A stretch of DNA of 64,000 nucleotides from Candidatus Nomurabacteria bacterium. Its GTDB lineage: Bacteria > Patescibacteriota > Saccharimonadia > Saccharimonadales > CAIOMD01. The notes under the pieces were generated by a model. The model saw only the letters and a program-made list of their open reading frames with translations. It was not told the DNA's origin and made no database searches. Where the stretch lies: positions 243,538 to 307,537 of the forward strand of contig JACKGO010000001.1 of NCBI GenBank assembly GCA_020631975.1. The letters are read 5' to 3'. The translations under genes were made by a program, and so were the position numbers. This document shows, in pieces, positions 7,022 to 28,728 of this stretch (the stretch's first letter is position 1; every line of letters begins with the position of its first letter).

Positions 7022-9322
7022 CTACTTTTTGTCTAATACTTTCAACTTATATTGTGTATAGCGCTCTGCAGCAAGCCGGGTAAGTTCTGCGTCTTCGTCT
7101 TTATTTACAAAGCGCATTGCTTCTGACACCATCGGGTGTACTTCAGCAATTTTATCGTACATAATTTTTGCCAGTTTTCTATAACCTGGATGCCCTTGTG
7201 GGCTGGTACGCAGTTCTATAAAATGCATGGCTTCTCTGGCGTTCATGGTAGCCTTCCAACGCATTTTATGGCCAAATAACGTAGCATACTGTGATTCGGT
7301 GATTTTTTTGGCTGCTACCAAGTTACTATGTAGTTCTAGGCTTGTGTCAAATGAATCTAGGTAGGTTTCTGTCATGCCTGCCTTTTCTATAAGTTCGGGT
7401 ATATCATAGCCATACCGCGGAGTTAACGGTTGCCAGGCAAGATCACTTACCATCCTATGGCGCTGTAAATCTCTAAATATGCCGTAATCACATACGATAT
7501 CCCAACTATAAGTAATGCGTTCGAGCGCACGGCCAGGTTTGTGCCGGCGGTTAAGTCGCTCGCCAATATAACTACTAAATAGCTTAACCTTATGCTTGTA
7601 TGGTAGATCAGCAATTGCTGCATTGGCTTCTTGCTCGCTCATTGTAGTGTGTTCGTAGACCATGTGCGGTACGACGTCTAGTTCATTCTTAGGATAGTAA
7701 TGGGTGAGGGTTACTGCTGATTGATCTGAGCTGTAAGTTTCTGGTAAAAGTTTTTGAACAAGGGCATGCATTGCCTGTCTAGTGTCTGCCCGGTAGGCTA
7801 CAGTTGCGCCCCCACGCTCTGGCTTATCTGCCCGTTCTAAAAAGGCTGGTATGATTTTGCGGGCTTCTGTAAGCAATGCTTTACCGCATAAACGGGCTTC
7901 TTTTGAACCATCAGCCATCAGTCTCATTATGAGACTTTCTATTGCTTGGCCCGATGCGTATATTCCAACGGTACTTTTCGTAGCAACTGGCAGCATATAA
8001 CGGGCGGCGTCACAGGCTTGGGCACGAATAGCTGATCGCCATGCGCCATCACGCTCTTTTTGGGGGGTAGAGTCTGTTTTGTGCAAATAGTCAGTAATGC
8101 CCCGAACAGCCTTGGAGTAATTGTCAAATAATTGATCCATCGTTTTTATATATTGTTTTTTTGTAGCACTGCTGAGCGTTGTAGGCACGTAGTATTTATA
8201 ACGACCGCTCGCATCTTTTTGGTCATAATAGATATACCGAGTTGATTGCTCTAAATAAGAAGCTAAACGCCCCCATTCAATTTGCTTGGTAAGTAAATTA
8301 GATGCGTTTTCTACTACCATGTGTATACCTACAAGCTGCTGGACAGAATCGTCTCCGTACGCTGTAACGACTCGTTGTATTAAGCCTTCGTCTTTACCTG
8401 CTTTATCTACGAATTCATCTAGCAAGGTTACGCGCATGTCATCACCACGGCGGCTCAGGCGTGCCATCGCGGCAGCTACAGTTACTTGGTCTAGCGTGTC
8501 GTTAAACGCATATACGTTTGATTCGTTGTTAGTGACAATGCTAGATAATTTTTGGCGTCCTGCATCTGTAATTGTTATTGGGTTTGCTGTTGTATCTAAA
8601 TACGCTGCAGTTTGCGCATTAGGTTCATGACTACTTGGTGCACGTAAGATTGGTGGCGGGCTACTCATATGTACACTTGGTTGTGTTTTGGCTGGCTGTT
8701 TATTAAATAGTGCAGCGACATATTCCCATACATATCTAAATACTTTTTCAGACGATTCGTTTGCAAATACAACTGGGTAGCCTCTTTGTTTGGCTTCTAC
8801 TAGATAGCCTGCCCTTACTCTATCTAGAAAGCCAAGGTCTAGGTTGTCAAACCGTTCACCATGTTTGCGACGCTTCATGCGCTTACCTAGTTCATCAACA
8901 GGAGCATCAAGAATTACTGTAAGATCTGGTTCCATGTCTCCGACAGCAAAATTTATAATACTGGTTATCGTGTCATAGTCTGGCACATCACCCCGGCCGT
9001 AATATTGTATCGCTAACGTGGTGAGGTAGTTTCTGTCTACTAAACAAATAACACCTTGTTCGCGGGCTTGTTTAATAACTTCTAGCGACAACGCACGAGC
9101 TGCGTTATAAAGTAGCACCTCTGCTCTGGTATTAAGTGGATAGTTTGGATCTTGTGTAATCTGGCGAATAGCACGGGCTGATAAATGGCTTTGACTATCT
9201 GGTTCTCTGAACAAGCGGACTGCGTAACCATATTTTTGTAGCTGACGGGCGATTAGTTCTATTTGTGTAGTTTTACCAACTCCTTCTGGGCCTTCAAGAA
9301 CAATATAATAGCCTTTACTCAT
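7022..9322 (-). CDS. tmk-thyX: thymidylate kinase fused to tandem flavin-dependent thymidylate synthase (ThyX-ThyX)
   Basis: N-terminal GPEGVGKTTQ, FREPDS and VDRNYL are Tmk motifs. The C-terminal ~550 aa carry two ThyX-like repeats. The first has ARYMLP...SGQAIESLIMRLMAD and a degenerate WGRLASY in place of RHR. The second has QRHRMVSDL...Y, YATLFG and NAREAMHFIELR. Confidence 0.8.
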   Translation of the reverse strand: MSKGYYIVLEGPEGVGKTTQIELIARQLQKYGYAVRLFREPDSQSHLSARAIRQITQDPNYPLNTRAEVLLYNAARALSLEVIKQAREQGVICLVDRNYLTTLAIQYYGRGDVPDYDTITSIINFAVGDMEPDLTVILDAPVDELGKRMKRRKHGERFDNLDLGFLDRVRAGYLVEAKQRGYPVVFANESSEKVFRYVWEYVAALFNKQPAKTQPSVHMSSPPPILRAPSSHEPNAQTAAYLDTTANPITITDAGRQKLSSIVTNNESNVYAFNDTLDQVTVAAAMARLSRRGDDMRVTLLDEFVDKAGKDEGLIQRVVTAYGDDSVQQLVGIHMVVENASNLLTKQIEWGRLASYLEQSTRYIYYDQKDASGRYKYYVPTTLSSATKKQYIKTMDQLFDNYSKAVRGITDYLHKTDSTPQKERDGAWRSAIRAQACDAARYMLPVATKSTVGIYASGQAIESLIMRLMADGSKEARLCGKALLTEARKIIPAFLERADKPERGGATVAYRADTRQAMHALVQKLLPETYSSDQSAVTLTHYYPKNELDVVPHMVYEHTTMSEQEANAAIADLPYKHKVKLFSSYIGERLNRRHKPGRALERITYSWDIVCDYGIFRDLQRHRMVSDLAWQPLTPRYGYDIPELIEKAGMTETYLDSFDTSLELHSNLVAAKKITESQYATLFGHKMRWKATMNAREAMHFIELRTSPQGHPGYRKLAKIMYDKIAEVHPMVSEAMRFVNKDEDAELTRLAAERYTQYKLKVLDKK

Positions 9323-10162: not shown

Positions 10163-11215
10163 TTAGATTTCTGCAGTATCTATTTTAACGCTTGGGCCCA
10201 TAGATGTCGTAATATATATACTCATCACGTAATTACCCTTTACCGTAGCTGGCTTTGCTGCTTTAATGCTAGCAAATACGGTTTTAGCGTTTGATACAAC
10301 TTTATCAACACCAAAGCTAACTTTACCTATACCAAGATGCACAATCCCGTTGCTGTCTACGCGATATTCTACTTTACCACCTTTGGCTTCTTTGACTGCT
10401 TTGGTAACATCTGCTGCTACAGTGCCACTTTTAGGGCTCGGCATTAAACCTTTTGGTCCTAAATTGCGCGCATATTTACCAAGTTTTGGCATTACGGCCG
10501 GTGTAGCAATTAATACATCAAAGTTAAATAATCCCTTATCTAATTGCTGCAAGAATTCTTCTGCACCAGCAATATCTGCACCTGCTGCTATGGCTTTTGC
10601 TACGTCGTCTGCTTCTGCAAAAACAGCTACTGTTACTTTTTTGCCTGTACCTTCTGGTAGAACAATACTCGCCCTAATATTCTGATCTGCATGTCGTGGG
10701 TCAACCCCAAGTCGTACATGCAACTCTACGGTAGCATCAAACGCAGTAGTGCTTGTAGCTAGCGCTACCTTGGCAGCATCTTGCAAGCTGTAGAGTTTTG
10801 TTTTATCGATAGATTCAATTGCTTTACGGTACTTTTTACCTTTACGCTCAACAAGACTTCTCGTAACTACTTTCTTTTTTACAGGTGTAGTTTCTTCTTC
10901 AGACGCATGGGCTTTTCTTTCTTCTTTCGCTGCTTTTTCTTCTTGCTCTTTTAAGCCTTTGGCGCTTCGCTTACCAGCCTTAGCTGTTTTAACATCTTCT
11001 TTTGCGAGTTCTGCCTCTGCTTCTACAATAACTTCTGCAATTTTTTCGGTTTCTACCAATTCTTCAATTTTCTTGGTAGATTCTTTTGCTGCCTTTGCCT
11101 CTGCAATGGCTTGTTCTATTTGCACAATAGTATTTTTTGCAGTAACACTTAGTTTAAGCTTTTTGGCTTCTGCAAGTAATGCTTCTTTTTTAGATGGTTT
11201 TTTGGCTTCTGCCAT
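10163..11215 (-). CDS. rplA: 50S ribosomal protein L1 with a 110-aa Lys/Ala/Glu-rich N-terminal extension
   Basis: The L1 core begins at ERKGKKYRKAIESIDKTKLYSLQDA. No ATG, GTG or TTG lies near the core start, so the extension is in frame from the distal ATG. Confidence 0.85.
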   Translation of the reverse strand: MAEAKKPSKKEALLAEAKKLKLSVTAKNTIVQIEQAIAEAKAAKESTKKIEELVETEKIAEVIVEAEAELAKEDVKTAKAGKRSAKGLKEQEEKAAKEERKAHASEEETTPVKKKVVTRSLVERKGKKYRKAIESIDKTKLYSLQDAAKVALATSTTAFDATVELHVRLGVDPRHADQNIRASIVLPEGTGKKVTVAVFAEADDVAKAIAAGADIAGAEEFLQQLDKGLFNFDVLIATPAVMPKLGKYARNLGPKGLMPSPKSGTVAADVTKAVKEAKGGKVEYRVDSNGIVHLGIGKVSFGVDKVVSNAKTVFASIKAAKPATVKGNYVMSIYITTSMGPSVKIDTAEI

Positions 11216-19448: not shown

Positions 19449-20780
19449 TTAATTTTTGTAGCTTTTAGCACCTACTAAGATTGATGCAGATGATACGACT
19501 GCTAGGACAATAAGTACAGCTATGTACACTGCTATGCTAGAGCCTGTGTAGGCAAGCTTTGCACCTGTAGCAACGGTTGGTACAGAAGCGACAGTTACTG
19601 CTGGGCTTTCTGGTGTTGGATTAGGTGTAGCTTGCGCAAGCGGAGCCCACTGCTCAATACCAACTCGGTCGGTAACTTTAGCAAAAAGTTTTGTAGTTAA
19701 GTTAAATGTTGCAGTATATAGTGGAGTGACATTATTCTTTTTAAAGGATTTACTTTCGTTCTGTTGACCATAAACCGTACCAATTAGTGAGCTGTTATCT
19801 GGTGAAAAATAGGCTGGAATAAACATCTCATCTTTTAGTTCGCTCAGTGGAGTAGCACTTCCATCAACTGTACTAATAAGGTAGAATTTGCAGTGGTTAT
19901 ACGAGCTAGATTCTCGATTTGCAAGCATTCCGTAAGCTGATAAACAGTCGAGCGAAGATGTTACGTCAGCAACAAGTACTGACTTGTTGTCTGGGGAAAC
20001 ATCTAGAAAGTATTCAGACATATTTTTAGTTGTAGTCAATTGCTGACTAGTCGTTTCGCCAGGTAATATGTACCAAATATCAGTATTGAACCATGTAGTT
20101 TTACTGTAATAGATTGTGCCGTTATCTGCATAACCTGCGTTTATATATACATCGCTAGATGGTCCAACAATTGTTGTTGGTGTACCAGATTCATTGTCTA
20201 TAGCAACTATAGCTGCTTTAGGATTATCTATTTGGTAGCTGTACTGCGTAGCTAACACTGTTTCGCCGTCTGGTGAATAAGATAAGTTATTGACCCAGCT
20301 TTTTGATGGGAACCATTTCGTTCCATTAACTAAACTATCTAAATTAGTTAGTAAGTCTTGTCCCTCAACTACGTTGCCGTCTCCATCGGTTGTAACCTTA
20401 TTGACTACAGCGCAAGTTTTTTCATATTTTGCACAATCGGTTGTAGATTCCACTCCGTAAGCGATATCGTAATTACCTTCGGCTGTTGGTGGTGAAATAC
20501 CAGCTGCAGTGATTGTATCATCTTCTGTTGCAGCTACTTGCTCGTTGGTACCATCTGGCCCAGTTGTAATGACCTGACTGACGGTTTCTTCTTGAAGTAT
20601 AACTCCTCTATCCTCGGGATTAACGCTGTTTTCATTTTCTGTTGGTACTTGATTGTCTATATAGACAATCGGTCCATTTTCTCCATCTATGGCAGCTGCT
20701 GCAGATGGCGAATACGCCAAAAACCCCACGGCACAAGCTGCTGTTGCAAAGAATGGAATAATAAACATCCCTTTTCTCAT
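19449..20780 (-). CDS. sortase-anchored surface protein with PD40/TolB-like beta-propeller repeats
   Basis: N-terminal signal peptide (MRKGMFIIPFFATAACAVG), repeated SPDG/SPDN blades, and a C-terminal LAYTG followed by a hydrophobic helix and a KSYKN tail. Confidence 0.65.
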   Translation of the reverse strand: MRKGMFIIPFFATAACAVGFLAYSPSAAAAIDGENGPIVYIDNQVPTENENSVNPEDRGVILQEETVSQVITTGPDGTNEQVAATEDDTITAAGISPPTAEGNYDIAYGVESTTDCAKYEKTCAVVNKVTTDGDGNVVEGQDLLTNLDSLVNGTKWFPSKSWVNNLSYSPDGETVLATQYSYQIDNPKAAIVAIDNESGTPTTIVGPSSDVYINAGYADNGTIYYSKTTWFNTDIWYILPGETTSQQLTTTKNMSEYFLDVSPDNKSVLVADVTSSLDCLSAYGMLANRESSSYNHCKFYLISTVDGSATPLSELKDEMFIPAYFSPDNSSLIGTVYGQQNESKSFKKNNVTPLYTATFNLTTKLFAKVTDRVGIEQWAPLAQATPNPTPESPAVTVASVPTVATGAKLAYTGSSIAVYIAVLIVLAVVSSASILVGAKSYKN

Positions 20781-20943
20781 CACGAGCTCCTTGTTTAATA
20801 ATTTTAGTCTATGCCTATAGATAGTACTTGTCAAATATTTTGTTTTGTTGTATGGCTATAGTTCTTATGCTTCTTGTAACCTGTTAATACTAGCCAGATT
20901 TGACTGCTATTATTTATGACAGATTGTTATACAATACAGCTAT

Positions 20944-21537
20944 ATGAAATCTCCTAAACGAGTGACCAATAAACGTGCACTAGCAGGTATTGCATTGGGC
21001 TTAGTGTGCACTGTTTTCGCACTATACATAAGCATTTTACTCCTTTCACCACGGTTACCGTCTATTCCTTATGTATCTGCTTCACCAATTGACCTAAACA
21101 CGAAAGATGACGAAAACGATAATAGAAATCGGATACAAATAGAAAAAATTGGTGTAGAAGTACCGTTTTACACAGGTAACGAAGACGTCTTAGAACTAGG
21201 CGCATGGCACAGACAACCAGAAAACGGCAACCCTGCACAGGGTGGAAATTTTGTATTGGCTGCTCATAGGTTTGAAATGGGTAATACACCTGGCCAAACA
21301 AGAACAAAATCGCCATTTTATAGAATTGACACTTTAGAATTAGGTAACAACGTAAGAATTTTTTACGAAGGCCAGTGGTATGATTACACAGTGAGTAAAA
21401 AATACGAGGTACCAGATAACGCTCTTTATATTGAAAGCACAAGCGTAGAACCAAAACTAACGCTCTATAGCTGTTCAATGAGAGGACCGGCCGCCGGCCG
21501 TTATGTTATAGAAGCCTCACCCAATACAACACGCTAA
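20944..21537 (+). CDS. sortase (class E-like, LAxTG-specific)
   Basis: N-terminal TM anchor, catalytic His in VLAAHR, and the TLYSCS (TLxTC) cysteine motif. Confidence 0.8.
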   Translation: MKSPKRVTNKRALAGIALGLVCTVFALYISILLLSPRLPSIPYVSASPIDLNTKDDENDNRNRIQIEKIGVEVPFYTGNEDVLELGAWHRQPENGNPAQGGNFVLAAHRFEMGNTPGQTRTKSPFYRIDTLELGNNVRIFYEGQWYDYTVSKKYEVPDNALYIESTSVEPKLTLYSCSMRGPAAGRYVIEASPNTTR

Positions 21538-21609: not shown

Positions 21610-22575
21610 ATGCTATACGGAAACGAAATACGTCGTCACTATTATTTGCCTAAAACGGTTATTGTGGCTCCACGCAGATCTGCCAGGCCAACTTCTTTCA
21701 CAGAAAGCATTACTGTGGCGAACCAAGCTGCGTGTGTACTGTGTAATAGCCACGAAGAGTGTATGTACAGTGTGCAGTCTAGCGATGGGTGGGTAATAAA
21801 ATCGGTACGTAACCCATATGGTGCCCTGACAGAGCATCAAAAGCACGCTTATGGATACCAAGAAGTAATTATTGAATCCCCAGCCCACATCACTAATTTT
21901 AGCGACCATTCAGTATACACCATAAAAATGCTGTTAGACACCTATGCGCATCGTTCTGATGCTCTTAAAAAACGACCCCACATTCGCTATGTATCGGTAT
22001 TTAAAAACAATGGCCCGCATGCTGGTGCAACACTGCAACATAGCCATAGCCAAGTGTTTGGCTTTCCATTTGTACCAGAAAAAGTGCTTACAGAAGTCGA
22101 AGCACTTGCCCATTACAAGCAAAAGCATGGCAACTGTGCAATATGCGATGTTATTCGAACCGAGCTTACGGACAATGTGCGGGTTGCTTACGAGCTAGAC
22201 CATGCTATTGCGCTATGTCCGTTTGCTTCAGAATACCCATATGAGCTGCTGATTATCCCTAAAAAACATTCTAGCAGTTTGTCAAAACTACACGATGATA
22301 CTAAATATGACATGGCTACGCTGCTAAAAATGTCTATACATATGCTAGACATGCAAAAACTCGATTATAACTATTACATTAATGACATGCATCACGCTGG
22401 CACTCATACCTACATACGTATAACGCCACGCATTGGCGCACCAAAAGTGTTTGGAGGATTAGAAATGGCGACAGATATTACCGTGAATTCTGTACCCCCA
22501 GAGCGTGCGGCTAAGGAGTACCGCCAGCACGTTGGTTCCCTGTTGCCTGCTCAACACTATGCCATTGCAAAATAA
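21610..22575 (+). CDS. GalT-like hexose-1-phosphate nucleotidyltransferase / NDP-sugar phosphorylase (HIT superfamily)
   Basis: N-terminal CVLCNSHEEC zinc knuckle and HSHSQ (HxHxQ) active-site motif; 321 aa. Confidence 0.6.
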   Translation: MLYGNEIRRHYYLPKTVIVAPRRSARPTSFTESITVANQAACVLCNSHEECMYSVQSSDGWVIKSVRNPYGALTEHQKHAYGYQEVIIESPAHITNFSDHSVYTIKMLLDTYAHRSDALKKRPHIRYVSVFKNNGPHAGATLQHSHSQVFGFPFVPEKVLTEVEALAHYKQKHGNCAICDVIRTELTDNVRVAYELDHAIALCPFASEYPYELLIIPKKHSSSLSKLHDDTKYDMATLLKMSIHMLDMQKLDYNYYINDMHHAGTHTYIRITPRIGAPKVFGGLEMATDITVNSVPPERAAKEYRQHVGSLLPAQHYAIAK

Positions 22576-23230
22576 TATCGTTTAGAAGCTGCAACGTCTG
22601 TTGCTTATCTGGCAGCGTGTTATCTTCGTAGTAGTGATTAATATCAAAAAGGTTTTCTTTGGCAGACAAGCATATAAGATCATCTGCCAGCACATGCATT
22701 TTATCTACCGCATCTACAGATGCTACAGGTGTAGCCATAACGAGTTTTTTATAGTGAATTGCCTTTAAAAAGTCATACACCATATCAAAACTGGTACCAC
22801 TAAGGGCTCCATCTGTGACGGCTATGACAACCCTGTTTCTAAAATAACTTGGTGATATTTCACCACCTTGCCCCAACACCACATGCATATTACGTATAGA
22901 TTCACGCTTTGCTTGCTCTATATGGTTACGGTATTCAGACTCAAATTCTTCTATTTCACCAGTAGAAAACGAGTTGTTATGTATAAATCCACCTTGTTCG
23001 TTAATAATACCGACCATTGTCCGGCCATCTGGTAAATAAATATCTTTTGTTAAAAGCATGGCAATGAGACTATGGAGGTTTCTGGCGAGTTCTGCTCCAA
23101 CCAATACTGCCCCTGGTGAAAGTGCTAAAACTATAGTGTCTTCATACCGATATTTTTGGGCATACTGTGCAATAATGGCCCCTGCCTGAGCGCGCGATTG
23201 AAAGTAATTATAGCTTGGGTTTTGCTGCAT
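22511..23230 (-). CDS. phosphoribosyltransferase-domain protein
   Basis: PRPP-binding-like VVIAVTDGALSGTS; convergent 65-nt overlap with the GalT-like gene. Confidence 0.5.
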   Translation of the reverse strand: MQQNPSYNYFQSRAQAGAIIAQYAQKYRYEDTIVLALSPGAVLVGAELARNLHSLIAMLLTKDIYLPDGRTMVGIINEQGGFIHNNSFSTGEIEEFESEYRNHIEQAKRESIRNMHVVLGQGGEISPSYFRNRVVIAVTDGALSGTSFDMVYDFLKAIHYKKLVMATPVASVDAVDKMHVLADDLICLSAKENLFDINHYYEDNTLPDKQQTLQLLNDIILQWHSVEQATGNQRAGGTP

Positions 23231-23319
23231 ATTAAGTGTTTAAATTATAGCAGTAATATTTTAAGTTTATATAATTACAATTACGCAACAATTTATAGAC
23301 TTTTTCACATCATTTATGG

Positions 23320-23348
23320 TTGTTTTTACGCTGTAAGAGTACTATACT
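23320..23348 (+). promoter_or_regulatory. promoter of the GT4-GH57-GH15 operon
   Basis: TTGTTT, 17-nt spacer, TATACT, 40 nt before the GT4 start. Confidence 0.35.
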
Positions 23349-23387
23349 AAAAGCATAAACATAACAAAAGGTTAAAATACCAAAAAT

Positions 23388-24599
23388 ATGAAGGTACTTA
23401 TGCTTGGGTGGGAACTGCCACCGCATAATAGCGGAGGGCTTGGTGTCGCGTGTTATCATATGTGCAAAGCACTGTCTCATAAAGGGGTAGATATTGAATT
23501 TATCGTGCCGTACACTGCCCCGCACGATGATATACATTTTATGAAGGTAACCCCGGCTACGCCTTTTAATGTCAAGGAAATCCAAAAAGGTGGCATGGCC
23601 TATGACAGTTTTAGCTATATTTATAACGATAAATCTATAGAGCATATTTCTATCCATGAGCAAACAGAACGTTACGTCAAATCTGTCGAGGGTATTACTA
23701 CATTAGGTGAATTTGACATTATTCATGCGCATGATTGGCTTACTTTTCGGGCTGCGCTCCGTGCTAAAGAAATAAGTGGCAAGCCGCTAATCACTCATGT
23801 ACACGCGACCGAGTTTGACCGCGCTGGTGGTAAATCAGGCAATCCGCTTGTACATGAAATAGAATACATGGGGCTTATGTTGGCAGATAAAATCATTGCC
23901 GTCAGCCAACATACAAAAAATGTAATTACCAAAGAATACGACATTCCACAAGACAAAATAGATGTTGTACATAACAGTATAGACACTGCTATATACCAAG
24001 ACCTAGACCCCCATAACGCCTACCGTTATTTAGAAAAAATGAAGTCCCATGGCTACAGGGTAGTGGCGAATGTTGGCAGACTTACCGTACAGAAAGGTTT
24101 ATATAACCTACTGCTCGCAGCCAAAGATGTCGTTTCGCGCTCACCTAAGACCATTTTTTTGATTGTTGGGTCTGGTGAACAGTATCAAGAATTATTACAG
24201 CTTTCGGCCGATTTAGGCATTGCTAAAAACGTCGTGTTTACTGATTTTCAAAGAGGTAAAAATTTACGTGACGCTTTTGCAATTGCCGATTTATTTGTAA
24301 TGCCAAGTGTTTCTGAGCCATTTGGACTCACACCACTAGAAGCAATAGGCTATGGGACGCCCGCACTTGTTAGCAAGCAAAGTGGTGTTGCCGAGGTTAT
24401 TACCAACTGCTTAAAAGTAGATTTTTGGGATGTCCAAGAAATGGCCAACCAAATACACGCCGTTGTATCACACGATAGTTTACGTGACGAACTTCACACC
24501 CAAAGTTTTGCAGAATTCATTAAGCTATCGTGGGACGCTACAGCACATAAGCTTGTAGGCGCATATACGCAGCACGTTCAACTTGTGGGGGCTAAGTAA
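23388..24599 (+). CDS. GT4 retaining glycosyltransferase (alpha-glucan / glycogen-synthase-like)
   Basis: MKVLMLGWELPPHNSGGLG N-terminus and C-terminal EPFGLTPLEAIGYG (EX7E). Confidence 0.75.
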   Translation: MKVLMLGWELPPHNSGGLGVACYHMCKALSHKGVDIEFIVPYTAPHDDIHFMKVTPATPFNVKEIQKGGMAYDSFSYIYNDKSIEHISIHEQTERYVKSVEGITTLGEFDIIHAHDWLTFRAALRAKEISGKPLITHVHATEFDRAGGKSGNPLVHEIEYMGLMLADKIIAVSQHTKNVITKEYDIPQDKIDVVHNSIDTAIYQDLDPHNAYRYLEKMKSHGYRVVANVGRLTVQKGLYNLLLAAKDVVSRSPKTIFLIVGSGEQYQELLQLSADLGIAKNVVFTDFQRGKNLRDAFAIADLFVMPSVSEPFGLTPLEAIGYGTPALVSKQSGVAEVITNCLKVDFWDVQEMANQIHAVVSHDSLRDELHTQSFAEFIKLSWDATAHKLVGAYTQHVQLVGAK

Positions 24600-25813
24600 T
24601 GAAGCAAGCTATTAGCCTTTACTTACACGTTCATCAGCCCTACCGTATTAGACATTACACTATATTTGATGCCGGAAGCGACCATCAATACTTTAATGAC
24701 GCAAGCCCGCACGCACTAACCAACAACCGGTTTATTGTTGAAAAAGTGGCCGAAAAATCATACCGACCAATGAACGCGGTGCTCAAAGAATTATTAGACA
24801 CAATAGAAGACTTTAAATTTAGTTTGTCTATACCTGGTATGCTCATTGATCAACTGGCCGAGTGGGCTCCAGACGTACTATATTCTTTCCAGGAACTCGT
24901 AAAAAGTGGCCGAGTAGAAATTGTGGCAGAAACCTACCACCACAGTTTGGCCTTCTTTTATTCGCGTGCAGAATTTGAAGCCCAAGTACTTATGCACCGC
25001 CAAAAAGTCCAAGAAGTGTTTGGTGTAACCCCTACGGCATTCCGAAACACCGAACTTAGTTACAATAACGATTTAGCTTATTGGGCAGATAAAGCGGGTT
25101 ATAAAGCCATAATTACAGAAGGTTGGGACCCTATTTTAGGATGGCGTAGCCCTAATTTTGTGTACCGTCCAGCTTACACAGAAAATATTAAATTACTACT
25201 TAAGAATTATAAGCTAAGTGACGATATTGCGTTTCGGTTTGGTAACCAAGAATGGGAAGAATGGCCCCTCAGTGCCGAAAAGTATGTATCGTGGCTTGGT
25301 GCAGCGATGGATAATGCCCAAGTATTTAATTTGTTTATGGATTATGAAACGTTTGGCGAGCACCAATGGGCGAGCACAGGTATATTTGATTTTATGAAAG
25401 CCATGCCACATATATGGAAAAATAGCCGTGATGATCGCACGTTTATGACTATTAGCGAATCTGTCTATAGCTTTGAAGCCAACGATTATGTTGATATACC
25501 GCAAACAATTACATGGGCCGACACTGAACGAGATTTAACTGCATGGCTTGGTAATAGTATGCAGCACGAAGCAATACATGCCATATATCAGCTCGAAGAT
25601 AAAGTACTACGTTGTGGTGACGCCGATATCGTGGCAGACTGGCGTAAACTACAAACCAGTGATCATTTTTACTATATGTGTACCAAATGGTTTAAAGACG
25701 GTGATGTACACGCATATTTTAGCCCTTATACCAGCCCGTACGAAGCGTTTACGAACTTTATGAATGCGTGGCACGACTTGCAGTTCCGCCTTGCAGAGAA
25801 AGGGTTTGTTTAA
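24599..25813 (+). CDS. glycoside hydrolase family 57 (alpha-amylase / glucanotransferase-like)
   Basis: N-terminal LYLHVHQPYR GH57 signature; start overlaps the GT4 stop. Confidence 0.8.
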   Translation: MKQAISLYLHVHQPYRIRHYTIFDAGSDHQYFNDASPHALTNNRFIVEKVAEKSYRPMNAVLKELLDTIEDFKFSLSIPGMLIDQLAEWAPDVLYSFQELVKSGRVEIVAETYHHSLAFFYSRAEFEAQVLMHRQKVQEVFGVTPTAFRNTELSYNNDLAYWADKAGYKAIITEGWDPILGWRSPNFVYRPAYTENIKLLLKNYKLSDDIAFRFGNQEWEEWPLSAEKYVSWLGAAMDNAQVFNLFMDYETFGEHQWASTGIFDFMKAMPHIWKNSRDDRTFMTISESVYSFEANDYVDIPQTITWADTERDLTAWLGNSMQHEAIHAIYQLEDKVLRCGDADIVADWRKLQTSDHFYYMCTKWFKDGDVHAYFSPYTSPYEAFTNFMNAWHDLQFRLAEKGFV

Positions 25814-25830
25814 GCGTGGCTAGACCAGTC

Positions 25831-27750
25831 ATGCTGAGTAATGGCCAGCTAATGGTTGGCTTGAATGAAGCCGGCTTAGTCCATGATTTTTATTACCCAT
25901 ATGTGGGGTTAGATAATCTTACAACCGCCAGAAGTGTGCACCATAAAATTGGTGTATGGGTAGATGGTACGTTTTCTTGGGTAGATGATGATTCCTGGCA
26001 GGTAGATATTCAGCTAGAAACAGATGCGCTTATTGGTAGAGTAGAACTATCACATGAAAGTCTTGGCATAAAAATCAGCACAAAAGATTTTGTAGACACG
26101 CAAACAAACGCCTTTATACGACGCATATCAGTAACCAATGAAAGTAATACTCGCAGAGATATTCGTCTGTTTATGCATCAGGTTTTTGAAATATCTAAAT
26201 CTGGCCGTGCCGACACAGCTTTTTATGAACCTGACGGTAATTACATTTTAGATTATAAAGGCCGTTGTGCCTTGCTTATATGTGGGCAAACAAAAGACGG
26301 TCACTCTCTAGACCAATTTGCTGTTGGTAATTACGGCATAGAAGGCAAAGCTGGTACTTTTATTGATGCAGCTGATGGTGAATTGTCTGGCAACGCCGTA
26401 GAACATGGTGGCGTAGATTCTGTCATACGGTTTTCTATACCGCTAGATCCACATACAACGGCTGAAGTTGACTATTGGATTATTGCGAGTAGCTCACAGT
26501 ATGAGTCACAAGCTATCCACGCAGATTTTTTGCGACACGGTATAGATAAGCGTGAACAGATTGCCCGAAATACATGGGCAAAGTGGTTAAAACAGGGTGA
26601 CAGCGCACTAGAAACAATTGCGCCTGAGTATCAAGATCATGTAAAAAAATCATTGCTTGTCATTAAAGCACATATAGACAAACGAGGTGGTATTTTAGCG
26701 AGTGGTGATAGTAGCATATTTAATTATGGCCGAGATTACTACTGTTATGTATGGCCCCGCGACGGGGCATATGCTATATGGCCACTTATAAGAATGGGTT
26801 ATTACAAAGAAGCGATTAAATTCTTTGAATTCTGTCGTGATACGATGCATAAAGACGGCTATTTGCTCCATAAGTATCAGCCAGATAGAGCAATTGGGAG
26901 TACCTGGCACCCACTGGTGCACAATAGTCGTTCGGAGCTGGCAATACAAGAAGACGAAACTGCAATAATCCTTATAATGTTGGGTGAATATTATGATTAT
27001 AGTAAGGATGCCGAATTTACCGAATCGCTGTATGCCACATTAATCCAGCCGGCTGCAATGTTTATTAGTAAATTCATAGAAGAAGACACAAACTTGCCGC
27101 ATGCGAGCTACGATTTATGGGAAGAGAAATTTTTAACAACAACCTATACCACTGCTACTGTTATACGCGCATTACGGCGAGCAAGTAGCTTTGCTGACCA
27201 GTTTGGATACCCAGACGACGCCGTTCAGTGGATGCAGGTTGCAGATAGTATAGAATCATCACTCCCCTTGCTGTACGACCCTGATAGGCAAGCGTATCGT
27301 AAAGGACTTCTGCGCCTGCCAGATGGTAATCTACAGTTTGATAACACGTTGGATATGTCCACGTTATACGGACTTACCATGTTTACAAAAGTAAAATTAA
27401 ACGATCCAACAGTTGTTCACACGGTAGAAGCTATAGAAAGTAACCTCGTTAACAAAACTATCGGTGGAGTCGTGCGATACGAAAACGATAACTACATGAA
27501 AACATCAGAAGATGCGCAACCGAATCCATGGTTTGTGTGCACATTATGGCTTGCGCAGTATTATGTACAGAGGCAACAGCCAGATAAAGCCAAAGAACTC
27601 ATAGATTGGTCACTGTCACATAGCCTAGATAGTGGCATACTAAGTGAACAAGTACACCCAGAAACCGGCTATGCGGTGGGCGTTGCTCCGTTAGTATGGA
27701 GCCACACTGAACTTATTAATACGATTCTTGATATTAGCGGAACACAGTAA
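25831..27750 (+). CDS. glycoside hydrolase family 15 (glucoamylase / glucodextranase / trehalase-like)
   Basis: LSNGQLMVGLNEAG N-domain and YVWPRDGAYAI (WxRD) in an (alpha/alpha)6 catalytic domain. Start placed at the ATG after the GH57 stop; the listed ORF starts 21 codons earlier and overlaps GH57. Confidence 0.75.
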   Translation: MLSNGQLMVGLNEAGLVHDFYYPYVGLDNLTTARSVHHKIGVWVDGTFSWVDDDSWQVDIQLETDALIGRVELSHESLGIKISTKDFVDTQTNAFIRRISVTNESNTRRDIRLFMHQVFEISKSGRADTAFYEPDGNYILDYKGRCALLICGQTKDGHSLDQFAVGNYGIEGKAGTFIDAADGELSGNAVEHGGVDSVIRFSIPLDPHTTAEVDYWIIASSSQYESQAIHADFLRHGIDKREQIARNTWAKWLKQGDSALETIAPEYQDHVKKSLLVIKAHIDKRGGILASGDSSIFNYGRDYYCYVWPRDGAYAIWPLIRMGYYKEAIKFFEFCRDTMHKDGYLLHKYQPDRAIGSTWHPLVHNSRSELAIQEDETAIILIMLGEYYDYSKDAEFTESLYATLIQPAAMFISKFIEEDTNLPHASYDLWEEKFLTTTYTTATVIRALRRASSFADQFGYPDDAVQWMQVADSIESSLPLLYDPDRQAYRKGLLRLPDGNLQFDNTLDMSTLYGLTMFTKVKLNDPTVVHTVEAIESNLVNKTIGGVVRYENDNYMKTSEDAQPNPWFVCTLWLAQYYVQRQQPDKAKELIDWSLSHSLDSGILSEQVHPETGYAVGVAPLVWSHTELINTILDISGTQ

Positions 27751-27801
27751 ATATCCGCTACACGATAACGTAGCGGATGCTATAACTGCTACGACTTTAG
27801 G

Positions 27802-28083: not shown

Positions 28084-28269
28084 TCATTGCGCTTTTGGCA
28101 TAATGAATAAACATAATATATATGCAAGTACAATGGTACCACCAGATAATACACCAAGTACGACAGTAGCCACTCTAACGACAGTAGCATCTATATTAAA
28201 GTATTCGGCTATGCCTCCACATATACCAAACAATACTGAATTTGTGCGTGAACGATATAACTTTTTCAT
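28084..28269 (-). CDS. PspC-domain small membrane protein
   Basis: RSRTNSVLFGICGGIAEYFNIDATVVRV followed by a TM helix. Confidence 0.6.
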   Translation of the reverse strand: MKKLYRSRTNSVLFGICGGIAEYFNIDATVVRVATVVLGVLSGGTIVLAYILCLFIMPKAQ

Positions 28270-28274
28270 ATTTA

Positions 28275-28349
<75 letters not shown>

Positions 28350-28505
28350 ATCATACGCTGTGCTGCCCATCATTTCTTGCAGCAACCCTAGGTTGTGCCT
28401 ATTATCTAATAGATAGTCAGCATCAATATTGCCAAGGGGATTATGCTCTAAGCCATGTGTTGACTGAGTTTCTGCAAAACGATGTGGATCATAATTACTC
28501 ATATA

Positions 28506-28591
28506 TGTGGTGCAGGGTGTAGGATTCGAACCTACGAAGGCATAAGCCAACAGATTTACAGTCTGTCGTGTTTGACCGCTTCACTAACCCT
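28506..28591 (-). tRNA. tRNA-Tyr (GTA)
   Basis: Anticodon loop CTGTAAA; long variable arm; T-loop TTCGAAT; CCA encoded. Confidence 0.85.
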
Positions 28592-28728
28592 GCATAAAGA
28601 GTATGTAGCTTGAGGTCAAGTACTACATACTCCAATTGTATTGTTAAAACACTTCCCTGACTACCCTCACGGCAAGTCAAAGGGTTTAGGCGCTCTCGCA
28701 CTGCGCCCAAGAATAACCAATGTTATTC

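What the first reader, a model, noticed from the sequence alone, without database searches (positions are those of the whole stretch)
21610..27750. Alpha-glucan/trehalose-type cluster headed by a GalT-like HIT nucleotidyltransferase instead of GlgC
The gene run is: a GalT-family enzyme (CxxC zinc knuckle, HSHSQ), a phosphoribosyltransferase-fold protein, a GT4 retaining glycosyltransferase (EX7E), GH57 (HQP signature) and GH15 (WxRD). There is no glgC, glgB or glgP in the window. A GalT-like NDP-glucose phosphorylase running in reverse could supply the nucleotide-sugar donor for the GT4. GH57 and GH15 would then remodel or degrade the glucan, or the unit could make and hydrolyse trehalose as a TreT-like GT4 plus a GH15 trehalase would. 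The PRTase-fold protein is an unexplained member. This could be an uncharacterised storage or compatible-solute pathway in a reduced genome.
Basis: inference. Interest (0 to 1): 0.55.

Follow-up and report, generated by a model that had tools for sequence, protein, structure and literature searches.

The report
Saccharibacterial glycogen operon with NDP-glucose phosphorylase
A tiny-genome Saccharibacterium carries an archaeal-style three-gene glycogen operon, and next to it a lineage-specific enzyme resembling the plant ADP-glucose phosphorylase, an enzyme family that sits beside glycogen synthase genes in many phyla but whose role there has never been tested.

Summary
All five genes and all the quoted motifs are present at the stated coordinates. 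No glgC, glgB or glgP lies in the window.

The locus is not one operon. GT4, GH57 and GH15 form a tightly coupled unit. That trio is conserved at the same genomic position in many Saccharibacteria that lack the GalT-like gene. The PRTase-like gene is on the opposite strand. It is a widespread Saccharibacterial neighbour of the trio and probably a bystander.

The GalT-like gene is found only in a small sub-lineage. By sequence and by predicted fold it is closest to Arabidopsis At5g18200, an ADP-glucose phosphorylase. It is not closest to classical GalT or to Ap4A phosphorylases.

In 27 of 76 distant loci, bacterial and archaeal, its relatives lie directly beside GlgA-type synthase or GH57 genes. 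These neighbours are almost always co-directional. The link to alpha-glucan metabolism is therefore real.

Supply of the donor by the reverse reaction is thermodynamically doubtful and remains untested. The trehalose reading is poorly supported.

A comparable operon was already noted in candidate phylum WWE3 in 2013.

Verdict: a modest new variant of a known kind, with an uncharacterised enzyme worth assaying.

The parts
21610..22575 (+). GalT-like HIT nucleotidyltransferase, 321 aa. Predicted NDP-glucose:phosphate nucleotidyltransferase of the At5g18200 (ADP-glucose phosphorylase) type.
   Evidence: Pfam GalP_UDP_transf N and C domains, HIT, DUF4931_N and DUF4921. It scores below the GalT equivalog cut-offs. 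Best PDB sequence hit is 1z84/2h39, E 1.7e-37, full length. The AF2 model has pLDDT 84.6. Foldseek ranks At5g18200 first (E 1e-26, TM 0.80-0.85), then GalTs, with Ap4A phosphorylases at TM 0.43. H144, H146 and Q148 are invariant in all 19 homologues; C42, C45 and H93 are additionally invariant in the 8-sequence subset.
22511..23230 (-). PRTase-fold protein of the TT1426 type, 239 aa. It converges on the GalT-like gene and overlaps it by 65 bp. Probably a syntenic bystander.
   Evidence: Pfam Pribosyltran scores 20.9, below the 26.3 cut-off. Its only PDB relative is 1wd5 (TT1426), E 2.5e-10. The PRPP-loop motif is degenerate: VIAVTDGALSGT. More than 100 homologue clusters at 55-84% identity occur in Saccharibacteria. 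It is present near the trio in L095 and L096, which lack the GalT-like gene; there it is 227-228 aa and lacks the overlapping tail.
23231..23387 (.). AT-rich divergent intergenic region. Likely promoter region of the GT4-GH57-GH15 operon.
   Evidence: Read directly from the sequence. The consensus scan gives no strong + strand site, so this assignment is an inference.
23388..24599 (+). GT4 retaining glycosyltransferase, 403 aa (alternative start at 23400 gives 399 aa). Predicted alpha-1,4-glucan (glycogen) synthase.
   Evidence: Pfam Glycos_transf_1 (101 bits), Glyco_transf_4, and Glyco_transf_5 starch-synthase N domain at 62 bits against a cut-off of 22.7. NCBIfam best hits are glgA_Coryne and MshA at about 121 bits, both below cut-off. 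PDB best hits are GlgM 6tvp, MshA, BshA and P. abyssi GlgA. GGLG and E-x7-E motifs are present. JGI names its homologues 'glycogen synthase'.
24599..25813 (+). Short GH57 enzyme, 404 aa, translationally coupled to the GT4 by a TAATG overlap. Predicted glucan branching or trimming enzyme.
   Evidence: Pfam Glyco_hydro_57 at 225 bits. Putative nucleophile E152 aligns with E123 of T. litoralis 4-alpha-glucanotransferase. The DYETFGEH region is present. It is 46% identical to a 398-aa GH57 in the Methanolobus vulcani GalT-like/glycogen-synthase cluster.
25831..27750 (+). GH15 enzyme, 639 aa (the ORF opens at GTG 25768). Predicted intracellular glucoamylase or maltooligosaccharide glucohydrolase.
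   Evidence: Pfam Glyco_hydro_15. NCBIfam TIGR01577 oligosaccharide amylase matches at 281.6 bits over the full length, against 94 bits and a partial match for TreH2. WPRD, LWEE and SEQ motifs are present, and the N-terminus shows no obvious signal-peptide-like hydrophobic stretch (judged by eye from the first 40 residues; no predictor was run). The start at 25831 is the one used by public gene calls.
27753..27778 (.). 11-bp-stem hairpin between the convergent GH15 and rpmG genes. Likely bidirectional terminator.
   Evidence: Terminator-like scan.

Best explanation
The core of the locus is a cytoplasmic alpha-glucan (glycogen) operon of the archaeal kind, conserved across Saccharibacteria. It has three parts:
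- a GT4 synthase that elongates alpha-1,4 chains from an NDP-glucose;
- a short GH57 enzyme, translationally coupled to the synthase, that branches or trims the polymer;
- a GH15 glucoamylase-type enzyme that releases glucose from it.

In this sub-lineage a GalT-like HIT enzyme has been added beside the operon. It is most likely an NDP-glucose:phosphate nucleotidyltransferase, as Arabidopsis At5g18200 is. It would act through a covalent His146-NMP intermediate and interconvert NDP-glucose + Pi with Glc-1-P + NDP. This connects the synthase's donor pool to Glc-1-P without NTP or PPi.

At normal cellular Pi/Glc-1-P ratios the net flux should run towards phosphorolysis. The enzyme would then act as a Pi-responsive drain or recycler of the glycogen-synthase donor, not as the main supplier of that donor.

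The PRTase-like gene is a conserved neighbour with no demonstrable role in the pathway.

Shown here: gene content, family assignments, catalytic motifs, conservation of the trio, lineage-specific presence of the GalT-like gene, and the cross-phylum adjacency of GalT-like genes to GlgA and GH57 genes.

Inferred: substrates, direction of flux, the role of GH57, and the product being glycogen.
For: - Family assignments and motifs.
- Fold: At5g18200 is the top match, ahead of GalTs and far ahead of Ap4A phosphorylases.
- At5g18200 is 41-44% identical to bacterial homologues that sit next to GlgA genes.
- The family is large: 4837 50%-identity cluster representatives at E<=1e-3, and more than 591 loci in GTDB species genomes.
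- In 27 of 76 distant loci a GlgA-type GT or a GH57 gene is the immediate neighbour.
- 36 of 37 such neighbour pairs are co-directional, with a median gap of 46 bp.
- Other contexts are one Desulfobulbia clade with a housekeeping context, or are heterogeneous.
- The Methanolobus cluster reads Glycogen_syn, GalT-like, GT4, three unrelated genes, GH57, GH57, and its GH57 is 46% identical to the window's.
- The trio is conserved and coupled in L090, L095, L096 and L097.
- GT4 homologues at 65% identity or more are very numerous, whereas GalT-like homologues at 61% or more form only about 10 clusters.
- In Sulfolobus acidocaldarius the GH57 gene amyA, in an operon with glgA, is needed for glycogen accumulation, and the GH15 gene gaa is needed for its degradation (PMC8158581).
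Against: - No enzyme here has been assayed.
- The GT4 scores far below every curated NCBIfam cut-off and is equidistant from GlgM and MshA.
- The GH57 has no close characterised relative, so branching versus hydrolysis is open.
- In this window the GalT-like gene is not co-transcribed with the trio.
- In L092 the GalT-like/PRTase pair lies next to a transposase, with no GT4 on the contig. Adjacency within Saccharibacteria could therefore be partly accidental.
- The argument about direction rests on equilibrium constants recalled from McCoy et al. 2006 and from textbook phosphorylase data. The paper could not be retrieved here.
- The nucleotide specificity (ADP, UDP or GDP) is unknown.
Confidence: 0.55

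Rival explanations
1. The GalT-like enzyme runs in reverse (NDP + Glc-1-P gives NDP-glucose + Pi) and replaces GlgC or GalU as the sole supplier of donor for the GT4.
For: - No pyrophosphorylase lies in the window.
- In Planctomycetota and other phyla the gene order GlgA, GalT-like, GH57 mimics glgA-glgC-glgB.
- Only 1 of 76 loci has an NTP_transferase nearby.
- Kantor et al. 2013 read a comparable WWE3 operon as a route for glycogen synthesis.
- The At5g18200 reaction is reversible (own knowledge).
Against: - The overall reaction, Glc-1-P + glucan(n) giving glucan(n+1) + Pi, equals reversed glycogen phosphorylase. Its Keq is about 3.6, while cellular Pi/Glc-1-P is usually far above 100 (own knowledge). 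Net synthesis is therefore unfavourable.
- Most Saccharibacteria keep the same trio without the GalT-like gene.
- Some Saccharimonadia encode UGP2.
- L074 has a pyrophosphorylase-PGM fusion and a GalT-like gene in one cluster.
Confidence: 0.2
2. A two-step phosphorolysis shuttle. The synthase runs backwards (glucan + NDP gives NDP-glucose) and the GalT-like enzyme pulls the reaction by phosphorolysis. This yields Glc-1-P and saves one ATP per glucose. Functionally it would replace glycogen phosphorylase.
For: - The GalT-like gene is tightly coupled, sometimes overlapping, with GlgA genes specifically.
- No GlgP was seen beside any GalT-like gene.
- The net direction is thermodynamically favourable in vivo, and At5g18200 has a micromolar Km for ADP-glucose (own knowledge).
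- One GT4/GalT-like fusion protein exists, P0282.
Against: - Glycogen synthases are generally regarded as effectively irreversible.
- The GH15 in the operon already provides a degradative route.
- The TM7 genome RAAC3 has a phosphorylase-like gene.
- There is no experimental precedent.
Confidence: 0.1
3. A classical Leloir GalT, or an unrelated HIT enzyme, that merely happens to lie near the glucan operon in this lineage.
For: [quoted passage not shown]
- The gene is separated from the trio by an opposite-strand gene.
- Relatives at 41% identity in other CPR bacteria are not next to glucan genes.
- L092 shows the GalT-like/PRTase pair beside a transposase.
Against: - It scores below both GalT equivalog cut-offs.
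- It is closer to At5g18200 than to any GalT by sequence and by fold.
- No galK, galE or galM lies in the window.
- Adjacency to GlgA or GH57 genes in many phyla is far above chance.
Confidence: 0.1
4. A trehalose cycle: the GT4 is a TreT-like trehalose synthase and the GH15 is a trehalase.
For: - GH15 includes archaeal and mycobacterial trehalases, and the window's GH15 has partial TreH1/TreH2 hits.
- Kantor et al. report trehalose genes and an 'alpha,alpha-trehalase' in a TM7 genome.
Against: - The glucoamylase-type model TIGR01577 scores three times higher and covers the full length.
- The GT4 has a starch-synthase N-domain hit and a GGLG motif, and no trehalose-synthase family appears among its top 25 of 44 NCBIfam hits.
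- A GH57 enzyme translationally coupled between the two has no role in a trehalose cycle.
Confidence: 0.05

Closest known systems
Arabidopsis thaliana At5g18200 ADP-glucose phosphorylase (PDB 1z84, 2h39; McCoy et al. 2006)
   Same: - Two-HIT-domain class I GalT fold.
- HxHxQ motif with a nucleophilic His.
- CxxC/His zinc ligands.
- Full-length alignment and top Foldseek match.
- 33% identical to the window protein and 41-44% identical to GlgA-linked bacterial homologues.
   Different: - It is a plant protein without operon context, and its physiological role is unknown.
- The window protein's nucleotide and acceptor specificity are untested.
- The window protein sits on a divergent CPR/archaeal branch.
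Archaeal glycogen clusters, e.g. Sulfolobus acidocaldarius glgX-gaa-glgC / amyA-glgA (PMC8158581)
   Same: - A synthase paired with a GH57 'alpha-amylase' that is needed for glycogen accumulation.
- A GH15 glucoamylase used for degradation.
- The same three enzyme families as the window's operon.
   Different: - Sulfolobus has GlgC, GlgX and GlgP and has no GalT-like gene.
- Its synthase belongs to a different GT-B subfamily.
- Here the three genes form one co-directional operon.
Operon in candidate phylum WWE3 RAAC2 (Kantor et al. 2013, PMC3812714), and the Methanolobus vulcani cluster (L058)
   Same: - A predicted GalT next to glycogen synthase genes and GH57 enzymes.
- The Methanolobus GH57 is 46% identical to the window's.
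   Different: - Those clusters have two synthases and two GH57-type genes and no GH15.
- There the GalT-like gene is co-directional with the synthases. Here a convergent gene separates it from the trio.
Classical bacterial GlgC-GlgA-GlgB-GlgP-GlgX pathway
   Same: The overall logic is the same: make a donor, elongate, branch, degrade.
   Different: - No GlgC, GH13 GlgB, GlgP or GlgX lies in the window.
- The synthase is GT4 rather than GT5.
- GH57 and GH15 take the place of the GH13 enzymes.
Mycobacterial Rv3032 (GT4) / Rv3031 (GH57) pair of methylglucose lipopolysaccharide synthesis (recalled from memory, not tested here)
   Same: A GT4 alpha-1,4-glucosyltransferase sits next to a GH57 enzyme.
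   Different: - That system makes a small methylated, acylated glucan, and methyltransferase and acyltransferase genes are nearby.
- No such genes are present here.

Membership tests
Class I GalT-type HIT nucleotidyltransferases, ADP-glucose phosphorylase (At5g18200-like) subgroup | HxHxQ motif with a nucleophilic second histidine | tested here: met
   HSHSQ at 144-148. H144, H146 and Q148 are invariant in 19 homologues.
Class I GalT-type HIT nucleotidyltransferases, ADP-glucose phosphorylase (At5g18200-like) subgroup | Two tandem HIT-like half-domains in one chain of about 320-350 aa, with zinc ligands (CxxC, His, first motif His) | tested here: met
   Pfam N and C GalT domains. Full-length alignment to 1z84. 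C42, C45, H93 and H144 are conserved. AF2 model TM 0.80-0.85 to 2h39/1zwj.
Class I GalT-type HIT nucleotidyltransferases, ADP-glucose phosphorylase (At5g18200-like) subgroup | Closer to the ADP-glucose phosphorylase than to GalT or Ap4A phosphorylase | tested here: met
   phmmer scores: 132.6 bits (At5g18200), 87 (P. aerophilum GalT), 65 (E. coli GalT); no Ap4A phosphorylase hit. Foldseek E-values: 1e-26, 5e-22 and 2e-6 respectively.
Class I GalT-type HIT nucleotidyltransferases, ADP-glucose phosphorylase (At5g18200-like) subgroup | Catalyses NDP-glucose + Pi <-> Glc-1-P + NDP | not testable with these tools
   Requires an enzyme assay.
Leloir galactose-1-phosphate uridylyltransferase (GalT equivalogs) | Score above the curated equivalog cut-off | tested here: not met
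   TIGR00209 scores 92.2 against a cut-off of 102.1. PRK11720 scores 103.8 against 448. Only residues 76-247 are matched.
Glycogen / alpha-glucan synthase (GT-B, GlgA-like; KEGG K16150-type GT4) | GT-B retaining glycosyltransferase with a starch-synthase-type N domain, a GGL motif and E-x7-E | tested here: met
   PF08323 scores 62 bits against a cut-off of 22.7; PF00534 scores 101 bits. GGLG at residue 16 and E310-x7-E318.
Glycogen / alpha-glucan synthase (GT-B, GlgA-like; KEGG K16150-type GT4) | Score above a curated GlgA or GlgM family cut-off | tested here: not met
   TIGR02149 scores 121 against 302. TIGR02095 scores 82 against 328. MshA scores equally at 120.7.
Glycogen / alpha-glucan synthase (GT-B, GlgA-like; KEGG K16150-type GT4) | Makes alpha-1,4-glucan from ADP- or UDP-glucose | not testable with these tools
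   Requires an assay. Indirect support comes from the conserved operon with GH57 and GH15.
GH57 | GH57 catalytic domain with the conserved regions, a nucleophile Glu and an acid/base Asp | tested here: met
   PF03065 scores 225 bits. HQP, VEIV, NTE (E152, aligned to TLGT E123) and DYETFGEH are present.
GH57 glycogen branching enzymes | A protein of about 500-560 aa with the GBE C-terminal helical domain, and detectable similarity to solved GH57 GBEs | tested here: inconclusive
   The protein is 404 aa. No solved GH57 branching enzyme was matched at E<=1e-3; the only hit was 1k1w. Functional analogy rests on the Sulfolobus AmyA genetics.
GH15 glucoamylase-type (TIGR01577 oligosaccharide amylase) | Full-length match with catalytic Glu residues; score above cut-off | tested here: inconclusive
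   Scores 281.6 bits over positions 2-613 of 616, below the 820.7 cut-off. WPRD, LWEE and SEQ are present.
GH15 trehalases (TreH1/TreH2) | Score above the equivalog cut-off with a full-length match | tested here: not met
   Scores 94 and 88 bits against cut-offs of 1000 and 820. Only the C-terminal part is matched.
Type I phosphoribosyltransferases | Pfam PF00156 above cut-off and a PRPP loop with two acidic residues | tested here: not met
   Scores 20.9 against a cut-off of 26.3. The loop reads VTDG, with one acidic residue. The only relative of known structure is the uncharacterised TT1426.
Classical GlgC-dependent glycogen pathway | Glc-1-P adenylyltransferase (NTP_transferase) encoded with the synthase | tested here: not met
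   None in the window. Presence elsewhere in the genome was not testable.

The most novel reading that the evidence does not exclude
The At5g18200-type HIT enzyme and a GlgA/GT4 synthase together form an NTP-independent shuttle between Glc-1-P and alpha-glucan, in which the NDP acts catalytically. This would be a two-enzyme equivalent of glycogen phosphorylase. It would substitute for GlgC and/or GlgP in many bacterial and archaeal lineages, including this Saccharibacterium. It would also explain the unknown role of the plant ADP-glucose phosphorylase.
Probability: 0.2. Interest if true: 0.7.

Novelty: new variant of a known kind. Interest (0 to 1): 0.4.

Why it matters
- Genome annotation calls this protein a Leloir GalT or 'DUF4931'. 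That would wrongly predict galactose use in reduced genomes.
- Its gene neighbourhoods across phyla are the first systematic genomic evidence I could find that the ADP-glucose phosphorylase family belongs to glycogen/starch metabolism.
- If the enzyme controls or bypasses the ATP-consuming step of donor synthesis, or the phosphorylase step, that would change energy budgets assumed for storage-polymer metabolism in CPR bacteria, Planctomycetota, Nitrospira and methanogens.
- It would also give a testable hypothesis for the long-unexplained plant enzyme.
- For this locus alone the gain is modest. The trio is a conserved and already annotated Saccharibacterial feature.

Tried and rejected
Searches that led nowhere:
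- A genome-contig scan with the single protein found no relative.
- The 19-sequence alignment was too diverse to seed a scan. An 8-sequence alignment worked.
- Literature searches for DUF4921, and for GH57 + GT4 + glycogen + GalT, returned nothing.
- 'GalT-like' + glycogen, and glgA + galT, gave only irrelevant hits.
- McCoy et al. 2006 is not held. Its kinetic and equilibrium values are therefore quoted from memory.
- No supplements are held for the Saccharimonadia preprint.

Readings rejected:
- Ap4A phosphorylase identity.
- The PRTase-like gene as a pathway member. It is conserved near the trio without the GalT-like gene, and the 3' overlap looks like a by-product of the GalT-like insertion.
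- GlgP-sized neighbours of GalT-like genes. They turned out to be unrelated families.
- The trehalose cycle.

Not attempted:
- GH57 structure prediction, because no permitted homologue alignment was available.
- A whole-genome check for glgC, galU or glgP, because no tool reaches the rest of the genome.

Full report
**Observation.**
- 21610-22575 (+): GalT-type HIT protein with GalP_UDP_transf N and C domains, HIT, DUF4931_N and DUF4921.
- 22511-23230 (-): weak PRTase-fold protein, 20.9 bits against a cut-off of 26.3.
- 23388-24599 (+): GT4 that also hits the starch-synthase N domain PF08323.
- 24599-25813 (+): GH57, 225 bits.
- 25768/25831-27750 (+): GH15.

So are the expected catalytic residues of GH57 (E152, D248 region) and GH15 (LWEE, SEQ).

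None of 38 other window ORFs belongs to a pyrophosphorylase, GH13 or phosphorylase family (flanks). No NTP-transferase G-loop motif occurs in any frame. The organism is a Candidatus Saccharibacteria bacterium, according to the source name of the identical protein P0001.

**Anatomy.** The locus is not one operon.
- The PRTase-like gene is on the minus strand. It converges on the GalT-like gene with a 65-bp 3' overlap.
- An AT-rich 157-bp divergent spacer precedes the GT4.
- GT4 and GH57 overlap as TAATG. The GH15 ATG follows the GH57 stop by 18 bp. A strong hairpin closes the unit before the convergent rpmG.
- By eye, none of the three N-termini shows a signal-peptide-like hydrophobic stretch (no predictor was run), so the enzymes should act on an intracellular polymer.

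**Conservation within Saccharibacteria.**
- The same five genes occur in a species whose GalT-like protein is only 62% identical, with a different upstream context (L090).
- Three further Saccharibacteria (L095, L096, L097) have the GT4-GH57-GH15 trio at the same place, followed by rpmG, a TPR gene, holB, rluD and trpS. They have no GalT-like gene and no remnant of one.
- GT4 homologues at 65% identity or more are very numerous, and JGI often names them 'glycogen synthase'. GalT-like homologues at 61% or more form only about ten clusters, then identity drops to 42%.
- The PRTase-like protein is again widespread in the group. It lies two genes upstream of the trio in L095 and L096, where it is 227-228 aa. 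Its longer tail (239-280 aa) occurs only where the GalT-like gene converges on it. The overlap therefore looks like a by-product of the insertion.
- Its only relative of known structure is the uncharacterised TT1426. I treat it as a syntenic bystander.
- In L092 the GalT-like/PRTase pair is followed by a transposase, and no GT4 is on the contig.

**What the GalT-like protein is.**
- Its best solved relative by sequence is Arabidopsis At5g18200, the ADP-glucose phosphorylase: E 1.7e-37 over the full length. GalTs match only the core region, and Ap4A phosphorylases are not hit.
- It falls below both GalT equivalog cut-offs.
- An AF2 model (pLDDT 84.6) matches 2h39/1zwj best (E 1e-26, TM 0.80-0.85). 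GalTs follow (E about 1e-21), and yeast Apa2 and Rv2613c are far behind (TM 0.3-0.47).
- The nucleophile motif is invariant in all 19 homologues, and the zinc ligands C42, C45 and H93 are invariant in the 8-sequence subset.

**Association with glucan genes elsewhere.**
- The family is large: 4837 representatives at E<=1e-3 and more than 591 loci in GTDB species genomes.
- I labelled neighbours in the 80 best loci by iterative phmmer. In 27 of 76 loci a GlgA-type glycosyltransferase (20 loci) or a GH57 gene (11 loci) lies immediately next to the GalT-like gene.
- 36 of 37 such neighbours are co-directional, with a median gap of 46 bp.
- These loci come from Planctomycetota, Nitrospirae, Zixibacteria, Elusimicrobia, Desulfobaccales, Betaproteobacteria, Chitinophagales, Methanosarcinales and Bathyarchaeia.
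- About 25 of the remaining loci are one Desulfobulbia clade with a fixed housekeeping context. The rest are heterogeneous. No other recurrent theme appears.
- Typical orders are GlgA, GalT-like, GH57 (L009, L012, L013, L088) or GH57, GalT-like, GH57 (L001, L036, L051).
- Methanolobus vulcani has Glycogen_syn, GalT-like, GT4, then CorA, DUF432 and MscS, then GH57 and GH57. One of its GH57 genes is 46% identical to the window's. Its GalT-like protein is 32% identical and its GT4 26% identical.
- In a rough NJ tree the window protein groups with other CPR and with archaeal sequences. At5g18200 is 41-44% identical to bacterial members that sit next to GlgA genes.
- One representative, P0282, is a GT4/GalT-like fusion.

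**Literature.**
- Kantor et al. [quoted passage not shown] - In Sulfolobus acidocaldarius, GlgA and the GH57 AmyA (operon amyA-glgA) are needed for glycogen accumulation, and the GH15 Gaa is needed for its degradation (PMC8158581).
- A large 2024 review of prokaryotic alpha-glucan enzymes does not mention a GalT-type enzyme.
- I found no paper characterising a prokaryotic member of this family.

**Mechanism.** The best-supported reading is as follows.
- The trio is a glycogen-type storage operon of the archaeal kind: GT4 synthase, GH57 branching or trimming enzyme, and GH15 glucose-releasing enzyme.
- The GalT-like enzyme is an accessory NDP-glucose:phosphate nucleotidyltransferase acting through a His146-NMP intermediate. 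It couples the synthase's donor pool to Glc-1-P.

The direction of flux is the open point.
- From memory of McCoy et al. 2006 (not retrievable here), Keq favours ADP + Glc-1-P by 5- to 40-fold.
- The sum of the reversed reaction and the synthase reaction equals reversed glycogen phosphorylase, with Keq about 3.6. Cellular Pi/Glc-1-P is normally far higher than that.
- The co-occurrence of a pyrophosphorylase-LbH-PGM fusion with a GalT-like gene in one cluster (L074), and the many Saccharibacteria that keep the trio without the gene, also argue against simple replacement of GlgC.
- I therefore favour a phosphorolytic role, as a Pi-responsive drain or recycler of NDP-glucose.
- I keep two rivals alive: GlgC substitution, and a synthase-plus-phosphorylase shuttle that would release Glc-1-P from glucan.

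**The trehalose alternative.** This is weak.
- The GH15 matches the glucoamylase-type model three times better than the trehalase model, and over its full length.
- The GT4 carries glycogen-synthase features.
- A coupled GH57 has no place in a trehalose cycle.

**Limits.**
- No activity is shown.
- The GT4 is below all curated cut-offs and equidistant from GlgM and MshA.
- The short GH57 has no characterised close relative.
- The rest of the genome could not be searched for glgC, galU or glgP.
- The 76 loci are not phylogenetically independent, and neighbour labelling by phmmer is conservative.

**Verdict.**
The locus is an alpha-glucan unit, and the HIT enzyme is a sugar-nucleotide enzyme that is genuinely linked to glycogen genes.
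- The interpretation overstates three things: operon structure, replacement of GlgC, and the trehalose option.
- The locus is a modest new variant of a known kind.
- The more interesting product is the cross-phylum linkage of the ADP-glucose phosphorylase family to glycogen synthase and GH57 genes.

Noticed in passing
window 19449-21537: A sortase gene (20944-21537, +) lies next to a 461-aa protein with no Pfam hit (19449-20834, -). That protein ends in LAYTG, then a hydrophobic stretch, then a basic tail (KSYKN). It looks like a sortase substrate with a variant LPXTG signal.
   Followed up: partly
window 7022-9322 (-): A 766-aa fusion of thymidylate kinase (N-terminal) with ThyX, which shows two Thy1 stretches. 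It sits next to a dCTP deaminase-like gene, and a thymidine kinase gene (1640-2227) lies about 5 kb away in the same window.
   Followed up: no
window 10163-11215 (-): Ribosomal protein L1 is 350 aa. The L1 domain covers only residues 152-341, so there is an N-terminal extension of about 150 aa. L097 has a similar 340-aa L1.
   Followed up: no
L074 4194-~10500 (Chitinophagales MAG): The cluster reads GT4 (416 aa), an 822-aa fusion of NTP_transferase, LbH and PGM domain I, a GalT-like gene, and GlgA (484 aa). A sugar-1-P nucleotidyltransferase and the HIT enzyme therefore co-occur in one glucan cluster.
   Followed up: partly
P0282 (631 aa, representative library): A single polypeptide joins a GT4 C-terminal domain (residues 139-282) to a complete GalT-like domain (318-623). 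An internal Met precedes the second part. It may be a true fusion or two adjacent genes read as one.
   Followed up: partly
window 22511-22575; L090 5706-5788; L092 10819-10925: The 3' ends of the GalT-like and PRTase-like genes overlap convergently by 65-107 bp in every lineage that has both. PRTase-like proteins in genomes without the GalT-like gene are 227-228 aa and lack this tail.
   Followed up: yes
L059, L065, L081, L038, L043, L064, L018: In Desulfobaccales and Nitrospirae loci, the GalT-like/GlgA pair (or, in L064, the GalT-like gene alone) is followed by a large GAF/PAS histidine kinase. In a Zixibacteria locus (L018) it is followed by a GAF-GGDEF protein. This hints at signal-controlled expression.
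   Followed up: no
window 28103-28522 (+): This 139-aa ORF overlaps tRNA-Thr (28275-28349) and tRNA-Tyr (28508-28593) on the other strand. It is almost certainly not a gene.
   Followed up: no
L006-L008, L094 (other CPR contigs): GalT-like genes at 41% identity to the window's are not next to glucan genes. They are consistently followed by a small mechanosensitive-channel-like gene. L090 and the Methanolobus cluster also have MscS genes nearby.
   Followed up: no
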